Assembly: GCA_021463485.1 (NCBI GenBank)
Contig: JAJTYJ010000001.1
Coordinates: 205,932 to 253,146, forward strand
Direction of reading: 5' to 3'
DNA: 47,215 nt
DNA from: a bacterium
GTDB taxonomy: Bacteria > Patescibacteriota > UBA1384 > 2-12-FULL-50-11
The notes below the pieces were generated by a model. That model was not told the origin of the DNA. It saw only the letters and a program-made list of their open reading frames with translations, and did no database searches. Each line of letters opens with the position of its first letter. The first letter of the stretch is position 1. Made by a program: the position numbers and the translations under genes. Positions 1 through 18,342 of this stretch are shown in pieces.

Positions 1-3000
1 TAAACGTACAATCGAAAACGCTGCCGGACTACCGACGCTCTTTCTAGACACCCACTCACTCGAAGATATGAACAAGATCGAAACGGTTAAGGGCGTCTTC
101 AGCGCTCTCGAGAAAAAAGACGCAGCCTTCGGGGTAATAACTGGTACGATCGATAAAATCCAACGAAACGATACCGAGGGACTAATTTGGGCCGGCGTTA
201 ACGTTTTATCTGATGCTTTTCGCCTAACCGATCAACAGCGTCTAGCGTTAGAATCTGCAACTAGAGCCAGGGCTACGCCGCCTATCACCCTCGAAAACGC
301 CCCGATCGATCGAAGTGTCCCGATCGCCTCTTTGGCTAAAATTTTCGCTGAAGATAAAGCTAAACAGCAGGCGGCACTAACAGAGCTACGCGACTACGGT
401 TACAGCTTTCTTAGAGAAGCGGCTGTTAAAGGAATACCCGGTCAGTACCGAGCGATCGGCAACGGCGTAATACGTGACCTGCTAGCCGGCAAGGAGATAA
501 CTCTTGGATACTTGAAAGATAACATCGCCGCCAGCGTTATCGCCGAACAAACGGGGTTGGATTTCTCAAGTGCCCGCGATCTTACTCGAGGCAAGTTTAA
601 CTCAAAGTCGATCGGCGTTTTAACGAATTTTATTAATAAGGAGCTTGAACTCGACCCACAGAACCAGCTTTCGGCGCAAGATGTCCAAGCCGTTGTTAGG
701 GGCGATGGCTTAAGTGTCTTGCAAAAAGTCGGCGGCGCCCAAGCTGATAAGATTATCGGCTGGAATATAGGCACCGGTTACCAAGTGATTAAGGGTGAGA
801 AGAAGTTAGAAATCGCGCTGCAAGAGGTGTTTGGCAACTCGATCACAAGCCTACTTGGTTTAGACCGGGGCACAACTATACCGCTAACAGGAGATCTTCA
901 GGGAAATTACGGACAAGCTATTGTTGAGCAGCGCCTTGGGCTACCTACTGGTTACCTCAAAGATCGGCCAAACGCTGGCAGTTTTTCTGGTAACGATCTG
1001 GAGCGGTATTTTGGCAGCGATTACGAAGAATGGGAGTACACCGACTTAATTCTTGGTGTCCCGATCGGTACAACCGAGCAGTTCGTGAACGGCGCAATCG
1101 ACACTAAGAGCCTAATTAAAAAAGCCGGTAGTGAGAATCTTATTAATATCGGCGTTGACCAAATTTGGAACTATTTCGACCTTGACGAAGCACTTAGAAT
1201 CAAAACTCAGGAGGCGCAGTTCCTGCTCGATACGATCCGTAACTGGGAGAACGCCCCCCTGGAAGATAGGGCGAAAGCCTTAAATTTCAGCGTGACGCTC
1301 GTGGGACGGTTTCTTGATCGACAAGCTAATTTCACTAGAGATACGTTCCTAGCATTTGCGCTTGGCGATACACAAACCGGCACTAAGTTGTTGATCGCCG
1401 AAGGGATAAAGCAGCTCGCCGGCGCGCTCGGGCTTAAACTCGATGGCTTCGACGAAGATGCGCTAAAGACGCTAGCCAACCAGATCACGCGGGCGTTTAG
1501 CGGAGATTTAAGTGATTTTGAGAAACGAGGCTTGATCGCAAAGTTAGCAAAAGCGACCGGAATTCCAATAGAGTACGTCAACGACATTGAGAACTTTATC
1601 GACGGCGACTACCGTCAAGCTTTGGAGCACTGGTCTTCGGCGATGTGGAGTGAGTTCGCTAATAAATATCTACCAGAAGAAGGCAAACTCTCATACGAAG
1701 AGCTTCGAAACGCACTTGATTTTGCCGACAACGACGCGATTAACGCCGCAGCAGTTGCGCTCTTCAATGAGCAAACTGGGTCGAATATGGAAGTTAACGA
1801 GTTTATACAGCTTTCTGAATCGACCCGAAAACTCTACCAAGACAGTGCTCGAAAGGAGCTAACCCAAACCGCTCGTGACAACACAAAGTACAAGATCTCC
1901 GACGCTTTTCTCCGTCAAGCCGGCATACTTGTACCCCTAGACTTCTCGCGAGTCATGTTCAGCGGCTCAGACAAGGAACGGGCGGCAATGTTAACAAGCG
2001 CTGTCTTTGCCTACCTAGATCCAGAATTAGCGACGCTCGTGCCAGGCTATCAAACGGGCATGCTCGAGAAGCTGTATAAGGGCGAGTTAACTTCGCGTGA
2101 GGTTGACGGAATAGTCGGAGCCTTCATCAGCCGGCTCGATATCGGCCTCGGTCCGTTCACGAGCGACTTCGTAAAGACTTTCTACCAGTTTGTAAGAAAC
2201 AGTAACCGAGATAACTTCTTTACTGGCAGCGAGTATCAAGGGATGTGGAGTTATCTAGACTCATGGTTCTCTAACACCCTCGGGATCCAGGAACTGCCAA
2301 GCGGATTTGTTAAATCTATCTACTACGCCTCTCAAAACGGGTTTGATTTTAATAAGGGTCTGGTAATTGACGGTCGCGTCGTCGTCCCGTCTCTTACGGA
2401 CTTAGGAAGAGATTTTGTCATCGGGAAAGTCACGCAGTGGGCTGATAAAGCGCTTGGACTACCAGCTGGTTCGGTTTACCAGCTTTATCAAGCAGTTAAC
2501 GGTATTATTACCGCTTCAAGAGCGCTAACCGCCGCTCACGCCGCAGCTCAGGGTATTAACGTAACTGTCCAAGCACTTACCGGCTTAACTGGCACCGGCG
2601 ACGCCCTGGTTAATAGTGCTAGAACCAGCCTAGCAAAAGCGCAAGCAAACCTGACTGTTCTAGCAATCACCATCGCCCTCAACGCGTGTGAGGCTTGCCA
2701 GGCGTTCTTCGCCTCGATCGATCAGGCCATCCAAGCGCCACCCGGGTTCACTAACGCCGCCGTCGCCGGCGCAATCGCGATGGCAGCCGGACTCGGACCG
2801 GCTGGGTTAATTATCGCTGCGGCTATTTACCTATTTGGTACGTACCGTGTTGACTACCTTTGCCCGATTCCGCCACCAGATCGATTCGCCAACGCCCAGT
2901 TTGATCCAGATTACGATAAACTGGAGTACGCCTACGGCGACTACTACAACGACCCAAATAAACCAATTAAAGACACGCCGGCTGAGGGCGAGAACCCGTT

Positions 3001-9972: not shown

Positions 9973-10722
9973 ATGGTTAAAGAGTTCTTCAAGACGATTC
10001 TGTACGAACCGTTATACAACCTGCTCATCTTTTTCGCCTGGCTCGTGCCGGGGCATAGTATCGGTTGGGCGATAATTCTACTAACAATTGTCGTAAAAAT
10101 TCTACTTTGGGTACCGTCAGTTAAGGGTATCCGTGCGCCGCTACAAATGCGGGTTCATCAGCCAGAATTGAAGAAGATTCAAGAGCGATATAAAGACGAC
10201 CGAACAATGCAAAGCCAGGCGTTAATGGCCTATTACAAAGAACACGGCGTAAACCCGCTCGCGGGCTGCCTACCGCTCTTAATCCAGTTGCCGGTTATCC
10301 TTATCCTTTACAACGTGTTTGTGGCTGGCTTGAAGGACATTCGACCAGATATCATCTACTCATTTACGCCGCATCTCGATACTATTAACACCCACTTTCT
10401 CGGTTTAGATCTCTCCAAACCAGATCGGATTTTTCTCCCATTAATAATCGCCGCCCTACAGTTCTTCCAGGCCCGCCATATGCAAAAGATAAACCCACCG
10501 ATGTCGAACGATCCGAAAGATCCGATGGTGATAATCTCGAAGCAGTCGGTTTTTCTCTTCCCGTTAATGACGTATTTCTTCGCGCTTGGCTTCCCGGCAG
10601 GCGTCTCTCTCTATTGGGGAACATCAACGCTGTTCCAATTACTCCAACAGCTCTATATCCAGAAAACCTTTGTTACTCCAAAGCCGAAAGTGGCGGTGAC
10701 AGTTCGTTCAAAAAAGAAGTAA
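9973..10722 (+). CDS. yidC: YidC/Oxa1 membrane protein insertase (short form)
   Basis: GWAIILLTIVVK, QPELKKIQERYK, NPLAGCLPLLIQLP and PAGVSLYW motifs; no periplasmic domain. Confidence 0.95.
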   Translation: MVKEFFKTILYEPLYNLLIFFAWLVPGHSIGWAIILLTIVVKILLWVPSVKGIRAPLQMRVHQPELKKIQERYKDDRTMQSQALMAYYKEHGVNPLAGCLPLLIQLPVILILYNVFVAGLKDIRPDIIYSFTPHLDTINTHFLGLDLSKPDRIFLPLIIAALQFFQARHMQKINPPMSNDPKDPMVIISKQSVFLFPLMTYFFALGFPAGVSLYWGTSTLFQLLQQLYIQKTFVTPKPKVAVTVRSKKK

Positions 10723-10725
10723 TTT

Positions 10726-10824
10726 GCGCGCTCGACAGGAATCTTCACAAGCTCGGTTCCTGCCAAGCTCCCCACAAAAATATCCCCTATTAGGGGGATA
10801 TTTTATAGCGCTCGACAGGAATCG
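10726..10824 (-). repeat. Two extra copies of the tRNA-Arg 3' end (T-loop to acceptor stem)
   Basis: GCGCTCGACAGGAATC (+ strand) at 10728-10743 and 10808-10823 is identical to 10866-10881 of the tRNA; the matches extend to 10726 and 10824. Confidence 0.95.
10776..10804. terminator. Terminator-like hairpin inside the spacer between the tRNA 3' repeats
   Basis: AAAATATCCCC-TATTAG-GGGGATATTTT inverted repeat between convergent yidC and tRNA-Arg. Confidence 0.6.
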
Positions 10825-10864
10825 CCCCAATGGGCGTTCCTCCCTTGTGCACTCATTACATGCG

Positions 10865-10937
10865 CGCGCTCGACAGGAATCGAACCTGTGGCCTCCCGGA
10901 CCGCAACCGGACGCTCTATCCGCTGAGCTACGAGCGC
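10865..10937 (-). tRNA. tRNA-Arg (anticodon GCG), no encoded CCA
   Basis: Reverse complement GCGCTCG TA GCTC AGCGGATA GAGC G TCCGG TTGCGGT CCGGG AGGCC ACAGG TTCGATT CCTGT CGAGCGC G folds as a full cloverleaf. Confidence 0.95.
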
Positions 10938-10987
10938 TGAAAACTGGTTAACACCAGTAGCTCAAAGGACAACGGCGTTAGCCGGTG

Positions 10988-11084
10988 ATCCGCTGAGCTA
11001 CGAGCGCATGAGTGAAGTAATGAACGAATGCGTTAGTAGCTTGGGCGGAACGAATATTTGCAGTATCCGCTGAGCTACGAGCGC
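10988..11084 (-). repeat. Two extra copies of the tRNA-Arg 5' end (acceptor stem to D-loop)
   Basis: ATCCGCTGAGCTACGAGCGC (+ strand) at 10988-11007 and 11065-11084 is identical to 10918-10937. Confidence 0.95.
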
Positions 11085-11093
11085 AATACGGAA

Positions 11094-11122
11094 ATTTTAT
11101 CTAAACTTTACTGATTAGTAAA
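11094..11122 (-). promoter_or_regulatory. Sigma-70 promoter immediately upstream of the outermost tRNA-Arg 5' repeat
   Basis: Minus strand TTTACT (11122-11117), 17 bp, TAAAAT (11099-11094), 9 nt before the repeat start at 11084. Confidence 0.65.
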
Positions 11123-11494
11123 TCAGTTACTAGCCGGTTCCATCTGGTTGTTAAGTAGGTATTGTCTTGTAGGCACTAGGGAATTTCTGTTTTGAGGCGG
11201 AGTTTTATATAAATATTCTTCATTATCTGTGGTTAGAATATAAAGCCAGTCGTAGCTATTTGGTGTTGGATACTTAACTACATAACCCTTAGAATTTGAA
11301 TGAATTCTTCTTAGAGCAACTTGCCTTGAACCACAATAACGAACTTGCACCCTTTTTATACTTCCCAGGTAATCAACGGCTAGGTCGTACGACGCAGACT
11401 CGGTTAACGGAATTAATGCGTCGTAACCAAGCCTTGTGAAGGTAGCTATAGCCTGTGCTACAGCATAATCACCTTTCCGCTGCGTTGTTCTCAT
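11123..11494 (-). CDS. Free-standing PD-(D/E)XK nuclease of the group I intron-associated type (PDDEXK_5-like)
   Basis: KGDYAVAQAIATFTRLGYDALIPLTESASYDLAVD...KRVQVRY...Y....YDWLYI fits the family pattern G..aE......GY.V..P......YDL.......RVQVK. Confidence 0.8.
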   Translation of the reverse strand: MRTTQRKGDYAVAQAIATFTRLGYDALIPLTESASYDLAVDYLGSIKRVQVRYCGSRQVALRRIHSNSKGYVVKYPTPNSYDWLYILTTDNEEYLYKTPPQNRNSLVPTRQYLLNNQMEPASN

Positions 11495-11537
11495 AAAGTC
11501 ATCCTAACAGTAGGGGATACTGTTTCCAATATATTTG

Positions 11538-11624
11538 CGGAGATGGTAGGATTCGAACCCACGAGGAGCTTTCACCCCTAACGCTTTTCAAGAGCGCCGC
11601 CTTAAGCCGCTCGGCCACATCTCC
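11538..11624 (-). tRNA. tRNA-Ser (anticodon TGA)
   Basis: GGAGATG/CATCTCC acceptor stem, anticodon arm GCGCT-CTTGAAA-AGCGT, long variable arm, GTTCGAATC T-loop. Confidence 0.96.
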
Positions 11625-11686
11625 AACAAGAGCAAGGCACTCGAGTATTGTACCGTAAATCAGGAGTGGGGTCACTACTTTTTAGG

Positions 11687-12370
11687 TTAATCGTGAGCAA
11701 GAGTGATCGCCCAAATGCGTTTTGCGCCCGCCTTTCTTAACGGTATTACTACAGCTGATAAAGTACTCCCGGTGGTAATAACGTCATCGCAAAGCACAAT
11801 CTCCTCAGGCGGCTTATCAACAACTTTAAACGCATTCTTTAAGTTGGTCCTCCGTTCAGCTTTTGTTGAAGTTGCCTGAGCAGCGGTCTCTCTTATTTTC
11901 TTAATTCCCAGAAATACCCTCTCGTTGGCAAGTAGTCTAGTAATAATCTCCGACTGGTTGTACCCACGCTTTGCGGTTCGTTGCTTGGTTTGTGGAATGT
12001 AAGCGTAATACCAATCTCCTTCTGGCAGTCGCCGGACTATCTCTTCGTACAGCGCAGCTGACAGGCAGGTAATAGCGTCCCACCCGCCGTCGTACTTAGC
12101 AGTGCTTAACGCCTGTTTTATTAACGGGTTCTGGTAATCGAACGGCGCGATAACGCCGTCTAGTTGGGTTGATTTGCGGCACTTATGGCACAGCCCGCCG
12201 ATCGCTGCTTTTTTACATATCGCGCAGCGACGATCGCTCATAATCTCAAGCTGTTTTAGGCACTGCGGGCAGATCCAGTCTGATTCCGAGCCACAGCCCA
12301 GACAATAAACAGGAAATAGTAAACGCTTAAACCAATCGAGTACCGACCGACTTTGACGAGCTCTTAGCAT
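11687..12370 (-). CDS. comF: ComF family competence protein (double zinc ribbon plus PRTase domain)
   Basis: Four CxxC pairs, RGYNQS, RRTNLKNAF and DDVITTGST motifs. Confidence 0.9.
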   Translation of the reverse strand: MLRARQSRSVLDWFKRLLFPVYCLGCGSESDWICPQCLKQLEIMSDRRCAICKKAAIGGLCHKCRKSTQLDGVIAPFDYQNPLIKQALSTAKYDGGWDAITCLSAALYEEIVRRLPEGDWYYAYIPQTKQRTAKRGYNQSEIITRLLANERVFLGIKKIRETAAQATSTKAERRTNLKNAFKVVDKPPEEIVLCDDVITTGSTLSAVVIPLRKAGAKRIWAITLAHD

Positions 12371-18175: not shown

Positions 18176-18262
18176 GGAAGAGTGCCGGAGTGGTTGAACG
18201 GGACAGTCTCGAAAACTGTTGGCTGCGCAAGTGGCTCGTGAGTTCGAATCTCACCTCTTCCG
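18176..18262 (+). tRNA. tRNA-Ser (anticodon CGA)
   Basis: GGAAGAG/CTCTTCC acceptor stem, anticodon arm ACAGT-CTCGAAA-ACTGT, long variable arm, GTTCGAATC T-loop. Confidence 0.96.
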
Positions 18263-18322
18263 CGAAAAGTTCGACGACGAAAAAGCGAATGAGGCGCTGA
18301 AATTCGCCGAAGGTGAATGAAG

Positions 18323-18336
18323 ATCTCACCCCTTCC
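18323..18336 (+). repeat. Degenerate copy of the tRNA-Ser(CGA) 3' end
   Basis: ATCTCACCCCTTCC versus ATCTCACCTCTTCC at 18248-18261 (13/14 identical). Confidence 0.7.
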
Positions 18337-18342
18337 TCAGTT

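What the first reader, a model, noticed from the sequence alone, without database searches (positions are those of the whole stretch)
11123..11624. Intron-less PD-(D/E)XK homing-type nuclease between tRNA-Ser and the tRNA-Arg repeat array
Seen: a 123-aa ORF lies 43 bp downstream of tRNA-Ser(TGA) on the same strand and ends exactly at the -35 box of the array promoter. Established: this family includes I-Ssp6803I, which is encoded in a tRNA group I intron and cuts tRNA genes. Here both neighbouring tRNAs are uninterrupted and there is no room for an intron. The expected conserved positions read V in place of the N-terminal E (GDYAV) and R in place of K (VQVRY). Inference: this may be a free-standing tRNA-gene-targeting nuclease or DNA-binding derivative. 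It is the only candidate enzyme in the window for generating or using the tRNA-end duplications, so nuclease plus tRNA-end array is a candidate undescribed mobile or defence system.
Basis: partly seen in the sequence, partly recalled or inferred. Interest (0 to 1): 0.75.

Follow-up and report, generated by a model that had tools for sequence, protein, structure and literature searches.

The report
Selfish nuclease gene beside tRNA-Ser(UGA)
The small gene is a stand-alone relative of the homing endonuclease I-Ssp6803I that comes and goes between near-identical strains and almost always sits right beside the tRNA-Ser(UGA) gene, in ultra-small bacteria, actinobacteria and phages alike, so it is most likely a selfish mobile gene and not the maker of the neighbouring tRNA-Arg repeats.

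Summary
A 123-aa ORF (11123-11494, minus strand) lies 42 nt downstream of tRNA-Ser(UGA). It matches Pfam PF11645 and folds like I-Ssp6803I (PDB 2OST).

It belongs to a tight subfamily (54-68% identical). In 77 of 80 genome loci a tRNA-Ser(UGA) gene lies within 112 nt, in three orientations. The same holds in Arthrobacter phage Talia1610 and in one IMG/VR viral contig.

The subfamily is rare: 6 of 401 Patescibacteria genomes sampled, and 0 of 3 genomes of the same genus. The closest relative (93% identical flanks) and one sludge contig carry an empty site, where 448-450 nt are replaced by about 16 nt.

R at the catalytic-lysine position is a K/R polymorphism (R 180, K 21 of 201). It is not a decayed site.

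Best reading: a free-standing homing-endonuclease gene tied to the tRNA-Ser(UGA) gene. The closest analogue is T4 SegB in a tRNA cluster.

The proposed link to the tRNA-Arg end repeats is not supported. The repeats occur without the gene and are no commoner beside it.

However, this genome's second PF11645 gene (contig 23) sits between a 35-nt stump of an old tRNA-Arg(UCU), cut in the anticodon, and a complete replacement tRNA. Nucleases of this family can therefore leave tRNA stumps.

This scan has noted free-standing PF11645 genes beside tRNAs before, on other DNA.

The parts
11123..11494 (-). Free-standing PD-(D/E)XK (PF11645, I-Ssp6803I-like) endonuclease gene, 123 aa, stop codon included
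   Evidence: Subfamily alignment A2 has invariant K7 G8 D9, D37, Q50, R52, H65-S66-N67-S68 and Y81-D82-W83.
11537..11624 (-). tRNA-Ser(UGA), the constant neighbour of the subfamily and the presumed target region of the nuclease. The target role is inferred, not shown.
   Evidence: Neighbour in 77 of 80 loci, in phage Talia1610 and in an IMG/VR contig. It is the only match to this tRNA in the own genome at E<=1e-6.
11089..11536 (-). Segment present here but absent from the closest relative G401 and from a sludge contig (run X19), where about 14-16 other letters stand instead. It holds a 42-nt leader with AGGA 7 nt before the ATG, the ORF, and a 34-nt tail.
   Evidence: G401; joint 11086->11537, skips 450, 16 letters between. 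No terminal inverted repeat or target duplication at the edges.
11647..11675 (-). Promoter-like hexamers upstream of tRNA-Ser. No promoter-like site lies between the tRNA and the ORF, so co-transcription with the tRNA is the simplest reading (inferred).
   Evidence: GTGACC-17-TACAAT, 9 of 12; consensus match only.
11094..11122 (-). Promoter-like hexamers that start one base after the ORF's stop codon and face the tRNA-Arg repeats
   Evidence: TTTACT-17-TAAAAT, 9 of 12; consensus match only.

Best explanation
The ORF is a free-standing homing-endonuclease-type gene of the I-Ssp6803I (PF11645) family. It belongs to a subfamily whose genomic niche is the immediate neighbourhood of the tRNA-Ser(UGA) gene. 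Shown: family and fold; near-constant adjacency to tRNA-Ser(UGA) in very different hosts and in viruses; rarity and patchiness; presence/absence polymorphism at one fixed site between strains about 93-95% identical; purifying selection. Inferred: the protein, probably a tetramer like I-Ssp6803I, cuts DNA in or next to tRNA-Ser(UGA) genes that lack it. Repair from a copy that carries it, taken up by natural transformation or brought by a phage, then copies the gene in beside the tRNA. The conserved tRNA gene supplies both the recognition sequence and the homology for repair. This would explain why the gene lands beside the same isoacceptor in Patescibacteria, Actinobacteria and phages. The R at the lysine position is a tolerated variant of the catalytic residue and not a sign of decay.
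For: (1) Family and fold: PF11645 at 53.1 bits; 2OST is the best hit by sequence and by fold; AF2 pLDDT 86.7; PADLOC 'HEase' E 1.8e-6. (2) Adjacency: tRNA-Ser(tga) within 112 nt in 77 of 80 genome-contig loci. These split into 35 divergent upstream, 28 gene-then-tRNA, 14 tRNA-then-gene as here, and 3 without. Also 3 of 3 further loci from relatives (L083, L085, L086). (3) Other hosts: high-GC actinobacterial contigs (L068: flank 72.5% GC, ORF 59.8%; also L082 and L023). Arthrobacter phage Talia1610 has a 55.8% identical homolog ending at tRNA-Ser(tga) inside its tRNA cluster. One IMG/VR contig has the gene 25 nt from tRNA-Ser(tga) in an 8-tRNA cluster. (4) Rarity: matches above 170 bits in 6 of 401 genomes sampled evenly over the phylum, own genome included. 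Among 61 relatives, 4 genomes, with 0 of 3 of the same genus and 1 of 17 other genomes of the same family. (5) Empty site: G401 has 93% identical flanks over about 21 kb but lacks window 11089-11536. A contig of run X19 shows the same empty joint. Contigs from two other studies (X7, X13) carry the ORF in place. (6) Selection: of the 8 ORF differences listed for X7/X13, 6 are synonymous. All 120 listed homologs are full length. (7) Active site: D37 in 200 of 201, Q50 in 201 of 201, E32 in 199 of 201; position 52 is R 180 / K 21. The phage copy has K. (8) Oligomer: the four-copy model scores ipSAE 0.85 against a best control of 0.01. The mark was reached by 20 of 30 proteins solved as pairs of one chain and by 1 of 23 solved as single chains. 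Runs share at least 91% of contacts and partner pLDDT is at least 79. V12 lies in the helix-helix interface. A like tetramer (2OST) is solved, so the pass may be from memory. (9) ORF GC is 40.9% against 46.3% for the window. Over 79 loci the ORF mean is 40.8% and the flank mean 45.5%. [quoted passage not shown]
Against: No cleavage or binding has been tested, and the target site is unknown. The empty-site contig of X19 carries a tRNA-Ser identical to the window's: 0 of its 9 differences fall in 11537-11624. So the 13 differences between the window's tRNA-Ser and G401's (75 of 88 identical) are not tied to the gene. They cannot be read as a co-conversion tract or an immunity allele, and how a carrier genome escapes self-cleavage is unexplained. 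HEG-linked and HEG-free tRNA-Ser(UGA) genes show no distinguishing signature. Only the anticodon loop, the T loop and the ends are conserved. R replaces the canonical lysine in 90% of members, and activity of an R variant is unproven. The protein tree is poorly resolved (6 of 78 inner branches starred), so horizontal transfer rests on distribution and not on a supported tree conflict. Organism labels of many metagenome bins may be wrong. X19 is an RNA library that may hold DNA, and contigs cannot show absence.
Confidence: 0.68

Rival explanations
1. Domesticated, catalytically dead derivative. The protein only binds DNA or RNA at the tRNA-Ser(UGA) locus, for example as a regulator or protector of that tRNA gene, and is kept for the host's benefit.
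For: V12 and R52 stand where other family members have E/Q and K. Conservation is very strong, including an invariant H-S-N-S hairpin. The gene always abuts one tRNA. Purifying selection is seen.
Against: It was found in only 6 of 401 sampled genomes and in 0 of 3 congeners. It is present or absent between strains about 93-95% identical. It occurs in phage tRNA clusters. K and R alternate at position 52. Three orientations relative to the tRNA argue against a fixed regulatory layout.
Confidence: 0.12
2. Selfish passenger without activity of its own. The gene spreads because it is linked to a tRNA gene that recombines easily, or it is mobilised in trans by another nuclease, as the defunct I-TevIII is by MobE in T4.
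For: tRNA genes of this genome are swapped and nested independently of this ORF. tRNA-Ser(cga) is 69% identical to G401's in a 93% background, with an old 3' end left behind. The tRNA-Arg repeats vary between strains. The genome holds a second PF11645 gene with the canonical K. Trans-homing is known from the abstract of PMC2790892 (search listing).
Against: A passenger would decay, yet all 120 listed homologs are full length and the catalytic-type positions are nearly invariant. Specificity for one isoacceptor across phyla and viruses needs a specific recogniser.
Confidence: 0.12
3. One reading: the nuclease makes or uses the adjacent tRNA-Arg end-repeat array as one mobile or defence unit.
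For: The two are close: the ORF ends 38 nt before the outermost 5' copy. A paralog elsewhere in the genome is flanked by a tRNA stump.
Against: G401 has the array (1+1 copies) without the ORF. X7 and X13 have the ORF with other copy numbers and other spacers. End copies occur at 24 of 187 tRNAs in loci with the gene and at 10 of 45 in loci without. The subfamily follows tRNA-Ser(UGA), not tRNA-Arg. The only PADLOC match is the generic 'HEase' model.
Confidence: 0.05

Closest known systems
I-Ssp6803I (PDB 2OST; Pfam PF11645), the PD-(D/E)XK homing endonuclease of Synechocystis
   Same: Same Pfam family and fold. The predicted homotetramer matches the solved enzyme (tetramer and 23-bp pseudo-palindromic target read in passages of PMC3384342). 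D and Q of the D...QxK motif are kept. Both are linked to a tRNA gene; that I-Ssp6803I sits in a tRNA-fMet intron is recalled, as the primary paper PMC1864971 was not held.
   Different: It is not in an intron: both tRNAs are uninterrupted and no intron RNA was found. It stands beside tRNA-Ser(UGA), not inside tRNA-fMet. Only about 25% identical. R mostly replaces K, and V replaces Q/E in helix 1. It is spread over Patescibacteria, Actinobacteria and phages, whereas the passage read in PMC3384342 places this endonuclease and its close homologues in cyanobacteria.
Phage T4 SegB (GIY-YIG free-standing homing endonuclease in the tRNA gene cluster)
   Same: A free-standing nuclease gene lodged among tRNA genes. 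It recognises a conserved tRNA-gene motif and drives inheritance of itself and the neighbouring tRNA genes (abstract of PMC2330249). Phage members of the present family also sit in tRNA clusters: 4 of 4 examined, plus one IMG/VR contig.
   Different: A different fold (GIY-YIG against PD-(D/E)XK). SegB is a phage gene, whereas this subfamily lives mainly in cellular chromosomes and keeps to one isoacceptor. No activity has been shown here.
HNH homing-endonuclease genes conserved next to long tRNA gene arrays (Anabaena all8564 and orthologs)
   Same: An endonuclease gene kept beside tRNA genes and proposed to spread them horizontally (passages of PMC8421152).
   Different: HNH fold; linked to arrays of up to 43 tRNAs and not to a single tRNA-Ser(UGA) gene.
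Archaeal Holliday-junction resolvase Hjc (PDB 1GEF)
   Same: Next-best structural neighbour (Foldseek E 8.6e-4). The Talia1610 homolog is annotated 'Holliday junction resolvase'.
   Different: Only 13% identity. The distribution, polymorphism and tRNA linkage found here are not those of a housekeeping resolvase.

Membership tests
Pfam PF11645 (PDDEXK_5, I-Ssp6803I-like) | Match to the family profile above the curated cut-off | tested here: met
   53.1 bits against 26.1, E 4.3e-14, residues 4-101. All 120 listed homologs carry PF11645.
Pfam PF11645 (PDDEXK_5, I-Ssp6803I-like) | Restriction-endonuclease-like alpha/beta core superposable on 2OST | tested here: met
   AF2 pLDDT 86.7. Foldseek best hits are the four chains of 2OST, E 1.1e-9 to 1.2e-6, TM up to 0.74.
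Pfam PF11645 (PDDEXK_5, I-Ssp6803I-like) | Catalytic D ... (D/E/Q)-x-K motif | tested here: inconclusive
   D37 and Q50 are kept (200 and 201 of 201). The K position is R here and in 180 of 201, and K in 21. Whether R supports catalysis cannot be told from sequence.
Pfam PF11645 (PDDEXK_5, I-Ssp6803I-like) | Homo-oligomer (tetramer in I-Ssp6803I) | tested here: met
   The four-copy model scores 0.85 against a best control of 0.01. The mark was reached by 20 of 30 solved one-chain pairs and by 1 of 23 single chains. Contacts agree at 91% or more and pLDDT is at least 79. The pass may be from memory of 2OST.
Homing endonuclease gene (functional class) | Site-specific cleavage of alleles that lack the gene | not testable with these tools
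   Needs purified protein and empty-site DNA.
Homing endonuclease gene (functional class) | Presence/absence polymorphism at one homologous site, with clean edges, between close relatives | tested here: met
   G401 and a contig of X19 have the empty site. The window, X7 and X13 have the gene. No terminal inverted repeat or target duplication.
Homing endonuclease gene (functional class) | Sporadic distribution across distant hosts, always at the same kind of site | tested here: met
   6 of 401 genomes. tRNA-Ser(tga) adjacent in 77 of 80 loci. Also actinobacterial contigs, a phage and a viral contig.
Homing endonuclease gene (functional class) | Co-conversion of flanking markers with the gene | tested here: inconclusive
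   tRNA-Ser is 85% identical to G401's in a 93% background. But an empty-site contig has the window's tRNA allele unchanged.
Intron- or intein-encoded homing endonuclease | Gene lies inside a self-splicing intron or intein | tested here: not met
   Both neighbouring tRNAs are complete. No Rfam intron family reaches its gathering score in 10400-12000.
   The array occurs without the gene in G401. End copies: 24 of 187 tRNAs with the gene against 10 of 45 without.

The most novel reading that the evidence does not exclude
PF11645 nucleases may be the unknown movers behind the tRNA stumps, nested ('Russian-doll') tRNA genes and tRNA-end arrays that litter CPR genomes. A cassette made of the nuclease gene plus a replacement tRNA would break the resident tRNA gene and be copied in, leaving a stump. 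Later loss of the nuclease gene would leave only a nested tRNA and its stumps. The contig-23 paralog of this genome would be such an event caught with the nuclease still in place: a 35-nt 5' stump of an older tRNA-Arg(UCU) allele ending inside the anticodon, then the nuclease gene, then a complete new tRNA. A relative, G441, shows the same layout. The hypervariable tRNA-Arg(GCG) repeats next to the ORF studied here would be older scars of the same process.
Probability: 0.25. Interest if true: 0.7.

Novelty: new variant of a known kind. Interest (0 to 1): 0.45.

Why it matters
Free-standing homing endonucleases are known mostly from phages. The PD-(D/E)XK type is known from one intron-encoded enzyme. 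Here a whole lineage of that type lives outside introns in cellular chromosomes and follows a single tRNA isoacceptor gene across phyla and into phages. That gives natural occupied and empty alleles in related strains for testing three things: how such a gene recognises a tRNA gene, how carriers avoid self-cutting, and whether arginine can replace the catalytic lysine. It also offers a concrete, testable candidate for what generates tRNA gene replacement and tRNA-end scars in CPR genomes. If active, the enzymes would be compact nucleases specific for tRNA genes.

Tried and rejected
1. A co-conversion or immunity allele in tRNA-Ser. First suggested by 13 differences to G401. Rejected as evidence after the empty-site contig of X19 showed the window's allele.

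2. A sequence signature separating tRNA-Ser(UGA) genes with and without the neighbour. None was seen in 83 against 24 sequences. The two sets are not taxonomically matched.

3. A protein tree to show transfer between phyla. It is too poorly resolved (6 of 78 inner branches starred). Orientation classes cluster (20 changes against 37.3 in shuffles), but this does not separate inheritance from homing.

4. Terminal inverted repeats or target duplications at the edges of the inserted segment. None was convincing. One 11-nt pair near the edges lies partly inside a tRNA-Arg copy.

5. tRNA-Ser(UGA) fragments flanking the gene. Found in only 7 of 78 loci, so the stump architecture is not the rule for this subfamily.

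6. NCBIfam gave no family. PHROGs gave only phrog_5018, of unknown function.

7. The primary I-Ssp6803I paper (PMC1864971) is not held. Its catalytic residues were therefore inferred from the alignment and not read.

8. Expression could not be judged. In run X19 (an RNA library kept as contigs) nothing lay on the ORF, because the strain in that run has the empty site.

9. Literature searches (listings and abstracts only) showed no paper on PF11645 genes tied to tRNA-Ser(UGA) or on free-standing members in Patescibacteria.

Full report
THE OBSERVATION

The window holds a 123-aa ORF on the minus strand at 11123-11494. It starts 42 nt after the 3' end of tRNA-Ser(tga) (11537-11624, minus). It ends 38 nt before the outermost of two extra copies of the 5' end of tRNA-Arg(gcg). 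The tRNA-Arg gene itself lies at 10864-10937, minus.

The protein matches Pfam PF11645 (PDDEXK_5) at 53.1 bits against a cut-off of 26.1. NCBIfam has no model for it. Its only meaningful hit among solved structures is I-Ssp6803I (2OST, E 5.1e-5). An AlphaFold2 model built on 33 homologs is confident (pLDDT 86.7), and Foldseek returns the four chains of 2OST first (E 1.1e-9, TM 0.74). SPARDA nuclease domains and the archaeal resolvase Hjc follow.

ARAGORN and Rfam read both neighbouring tRNAs as complete. No intron family or other RNA family reaches its gathering score between 10400 and 12000.

THE TWO 'WRONG' RESIDUES

V12 and R52 are really there. They are features of a whole subfamily and not damage in this copy.

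In 201 subfamily sequences (the window, the 120 best database hits and 80 translated loci, which may overlap), position 12 is V in 191 and never acidic. Position 52 is R in 180 and K in 21. D37 (200 of 201), Q50 (201 of 201) and E32 (199 of 201) are kept. In the alignment, I-Ssp6803I itself has Q opposite V12, so an E there is not a requirement of the family. The phage member has K at position 52.

A four-copy model gives a tetramer with ipSAE 0.85 against 0.01 for the best of three controls. The mark was reached by 20 of 30 proteins solved as pairs of one chain and by 1 of 23 solved as single chains. The runs share at least 91% of their contacts, and partner pLDDT is at least 79. Because the 2OST tetramer is solved, this pass may be from memory. 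In the model V12 lies in the helix-to-helix interface.

K/R exchange at the 'lysine' position, with the other active-site-type positions invariant, fits a working enzyme better than a dead one. That remains an inference. I could not read the primary structural paper (PMC1864971 is not held).

THE SUBFAMILY AND ITS FIXED ADDRESS

The database search found 1011 proteins at E <= 0.001 among 1020 candidates. The best 120 are all about 115-135 aa, carry PF11645 and are 58-70% identical to the query. Source names, where given, include several Patescibacteria groups and Omnitrophota.

A scan of one genome per species found 132 encoding stretches, of which the best 80 were kept. ARAGORN finds a tRNA-Ser(tga) gene within 112 nt of the ORF in 77 of these 80:
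- 35 with the tRNA upstream and divergent;
- 28 with the gene directly upstream of the tRNA;
- 14 with the tRNA upstream on the same strand, as here;
- none convergent.

The three exceptions are L029 (677 nt away), L042 (no tRNA found in the locus) and L060 (tRNA-Ser(gga) instead). Three further loci from relatives also have the tRNA adjacent. In a genome of under 1 Mb, a given tRNA within about 100 nt of a random gene is expected a few times in ten thousand. This figure is my own estimate and not a tool result.

The address holds outside the phylum. Contigs with 64-73% GC labelled Thermoleophilia and Acidimicrobiia carry the gene beside their own tRNA-Ser(tga) (L023, L068, L082). Arthrobacter phage Talia1610 has a 55.8% identical copy, annotated 'Holliday junction resolvase', that ends at tRNA-Ser(tga) inside the phage's tRNA cluster. 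The single hit in IMG/VR lies 25 nt from tRNA-Ser(tga) in a cluster of eight tRNAs, this time convergent.

RARE, PATCHY AND POLYMORPHIC

In an even sample of 401 genomes of the phylum, the subfamily (more than 170 bits) is found in 6, the own genome included. Among 61 relatives it is found in 4. That is none of the 3 other genomes of the genus (92-94% complete) and 1 of 17 other genomes of the family.

The closest relative, G401, aligns to the window at 93% over about 21 kb. It lacks window 11089-11536: right after tRNA-Ser it has about 14 other letters and then the first tRNA-Arg 5' copy.

Contigs from public runs tell the same story. Two DNA runs of two other studies (X7, X13) have the ORF in place on contigs about 95% identical to the window (64-65 differences in 1339 nt). 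A contig of run X19, an RNA library that may hold DNA, joins 11086 to 11537 with 16 letters between. That filler matches the filler of G401 all but exactly (one letter differs), so it is the same empty site.

Of the 8 differences listed inside the ORF for X7/X13, 6 are synonymous. The table was cut, so the list may be incomplete. The ORF is poorer in GC than its surroundings: 40.9% against 46.3% here, and means of 40.8% against 45.5% over 79 loci, with r = 0.79. The edges of the inserted segment show no target duplication or terminal inverted repeats.

Taken together this is the signature of a homing-endonuclease-type selfish gene. It does not fit a housekeeping gene held by synteny, nor an integrase or transposase element.

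WHAT IS NOT SHOWN

The window's tRNA-Ser differs from G401's at 13 of 88 positions. That places it at the 5th percentile of 88-nt windows, while tRNA-Arg(gcg) and tRNA-Ser(gct) are identical between the two genomes. At first this looked like a co-conversion tract. The empty-site contig of X19, however, has the window's tRNA-Ser unchanged: all 9 of its differences lie outside the tRNA. The allele is therefore not tied to the gene.

I found no sequence signature that separates tRNA-Ser(UGA) genes with the neighbour from those without. Only the 5' and 3' ends, the anticodon loop and the T loop are conserved across all. The target site and the way carriers avoid self-cleavage thus remain unknown. 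The anticodon arm is a guess, by analogy with I-Ssp6803I and because the association is isoacceptor-specific. The protein tree is too weakly resolved to prove transfer.

THE tRNA-Arg REPEATS ARE A SEPARATE MATTER

G401 has the repeats (one extra 5' and one extra 3' copy) without the ORF. X7 and X13 have the ORF with other numbers of copies and with other spacer letters. X19 has the G401-like form.

I counted tRNAs that have a near-exact copy of their first or last 16 nt within 600 nt. There are 24 of 187 in loci with the gene and 10 of 45 in loci without. Extra 5' copies of tRNA-Arg(gcg) occur in several relatives that lack the gene.

The array itself is hypervariable between strains about 95% identical. 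It looks like the nested tRNA cassettes that earlier notes of this scan describe elsewhere in this same genome (e1-705100, e1-1002529).

A WIDER PATTERN AND A LINK TO tRNA STUMPS

Other PF11645 subfamilies in Patescibacteria also abut tRNAs. Of 11 such loci, 7 have a tRNA within 75 nt (Arg-tct, Thr, Tyr, Gly). One has tRNA-Met 331 nt away. Three have none within 1.5 kb. All 4 phage homologs that I opened lie inside tRNA clusters.

The own genome's second PF11645 gene, on contig 23, carries the canonical K. It sits between two pieces of tRNA-Arg(tct). Upstream are 35 nt that match the 5' part of G401's allele and stop inside the anticodon. Directly downstream is a complete, different tRNA-Arg(tct). 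At the same site G401 has the older allele intact, then 2 kb with two membrane-protein genes, then a 16-nt 3' remnant of the other allele. In G441 a PF11645 gene likewise lies between a 24-nt 5' fragment and the complete copy of a tRNA with anticodon CTA.

Nucleases of this family are thus found exactly where a tRNA gene has been broken and replaced. For the tRNA-Ser subfamily such fragments are the exception: 7 of 78 loci.

COMPARISON WITH WHAT IS KNOWN

By family, fold and probably quaternary structure, this is a member of the I-Ssp6803I family. That enzyme forms a tetramer on a 23-bp pseudo-palindromic site, and the review places it and its close homologues in cyanobacteria (passages of PMC3384342). 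The present gene differs in being free-standing, in its partner tRNA, in the R/K position and in its hosts.

By way of life, the closest analogue is T4 SegB. SegB is a free-standing GIY-YIG endonuclease in the T4 tRNA cluster. It recognises the T-psi-C stem-loop motif and drives inheritance of itself and the neighbouring tRNA genes (abstract of PMC2330249). HNH genes beside long tRNA arrays have been proposed to act likewise (passages of PMC8421152).

My searches (listings and abstracts only) showed no paper on PF11645 genes tied to tRNA-Ser(UGA) or on free-standing members in Patescibacteria. This scan has noted free-standing PF11645 genes beside tRNAs on other DNA (15 findings in at least 15 genomes, 8 shown). 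One note says that phage relatives most often sit next to tRNA-Ser.

VERDICT

This is a real, intact gene. It is most likely a free-standing homing endonuclease whose niche is the tRNA-Ser(UGA) gene (confidence about 0.68). It is a new variant of a known kind, of moderate interest. The link to the tRNA-Arg array is not supported at this locus.

Noticed in passing
window 10728-11084 (minus strand): The tRNA-Arg(gcg) gene is wrapped in two extra 5'-end copies (21 nt) and two extra 3'-end copies (16 nt, each preceded by a T-arm-like hairpin), nested like shells. The number of shells and the spacer letters differ between strains 93-95% identical: G401 has 1+1. X7 has no 3' copy and 83 other letters on the 5' side. 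X13 has no extra 5' copy and 63 other letters on the 3' side. A terminator-like hairpin at 10783-10797 lies between the two 3' copies. Extra 5' copies of tRNA-Arg(gcg) recur in relatives.
   Followed up: partly
window 18176-18263 and 18323-18338: tRNA-Ser(cga) is only 69% identical to G401's copy in a 93% identical background. This is a precise allele swap that starts about 8 nt into the tRNA. A decayed copy of the tRNA's last 16 nt lies 60 nt downstream (2 mismatches; 0.02 matches expected by chance). G401's own downstream remnant matches the window's current allele, not G401's.
   Followed up: partly
own genome contig 23, L001 1424-1969: Second PF11645 gene (135 aa, canonical Q-x-K). It lies between a 35-nt 5' stump of an older tRNA-Arg(tct) allele, which ends inside the anticodon, and a complete different tRNA-Arg(tct) that starts at the ORF's last base. 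At this site G401 has the older allele intact, a 2-kb insert with two membrane-protein genes, and a 16-nt 3' remnant of the other allele.
   Followed up: partly
L089 (G441 contig 20) 1356-1977: A PF11645 gene flanked by tRNA-Gly(tcc) and by a tRNA with anticodon CTA (amber-reading; ARAGORN labels it Pyl). A 24-nt copy of positions 5-28 of that tRNA lies just upstream of the nuclease gene.
   Followed up: no
L083 and L031 (relatives with the gene): Two copies of the shared 5' end of tRNA-Arg lie between tRNA-Arg(gcg) and tRNA-Arg(ccg), spaced about 90 nt apart. End-copy arrays at tRNA-Arg genes are therefore widespread in this class.
   Followed up: no
window 11499-11536: The 42-nt leader between tRNA-Ser and the ORF holds a 7-bp hairpin and an AGGA 7 nt before the ATG. 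No promoter-like site was found there, so the ORF may be read from the tRNA-Ser transcript.
   Followed up: no
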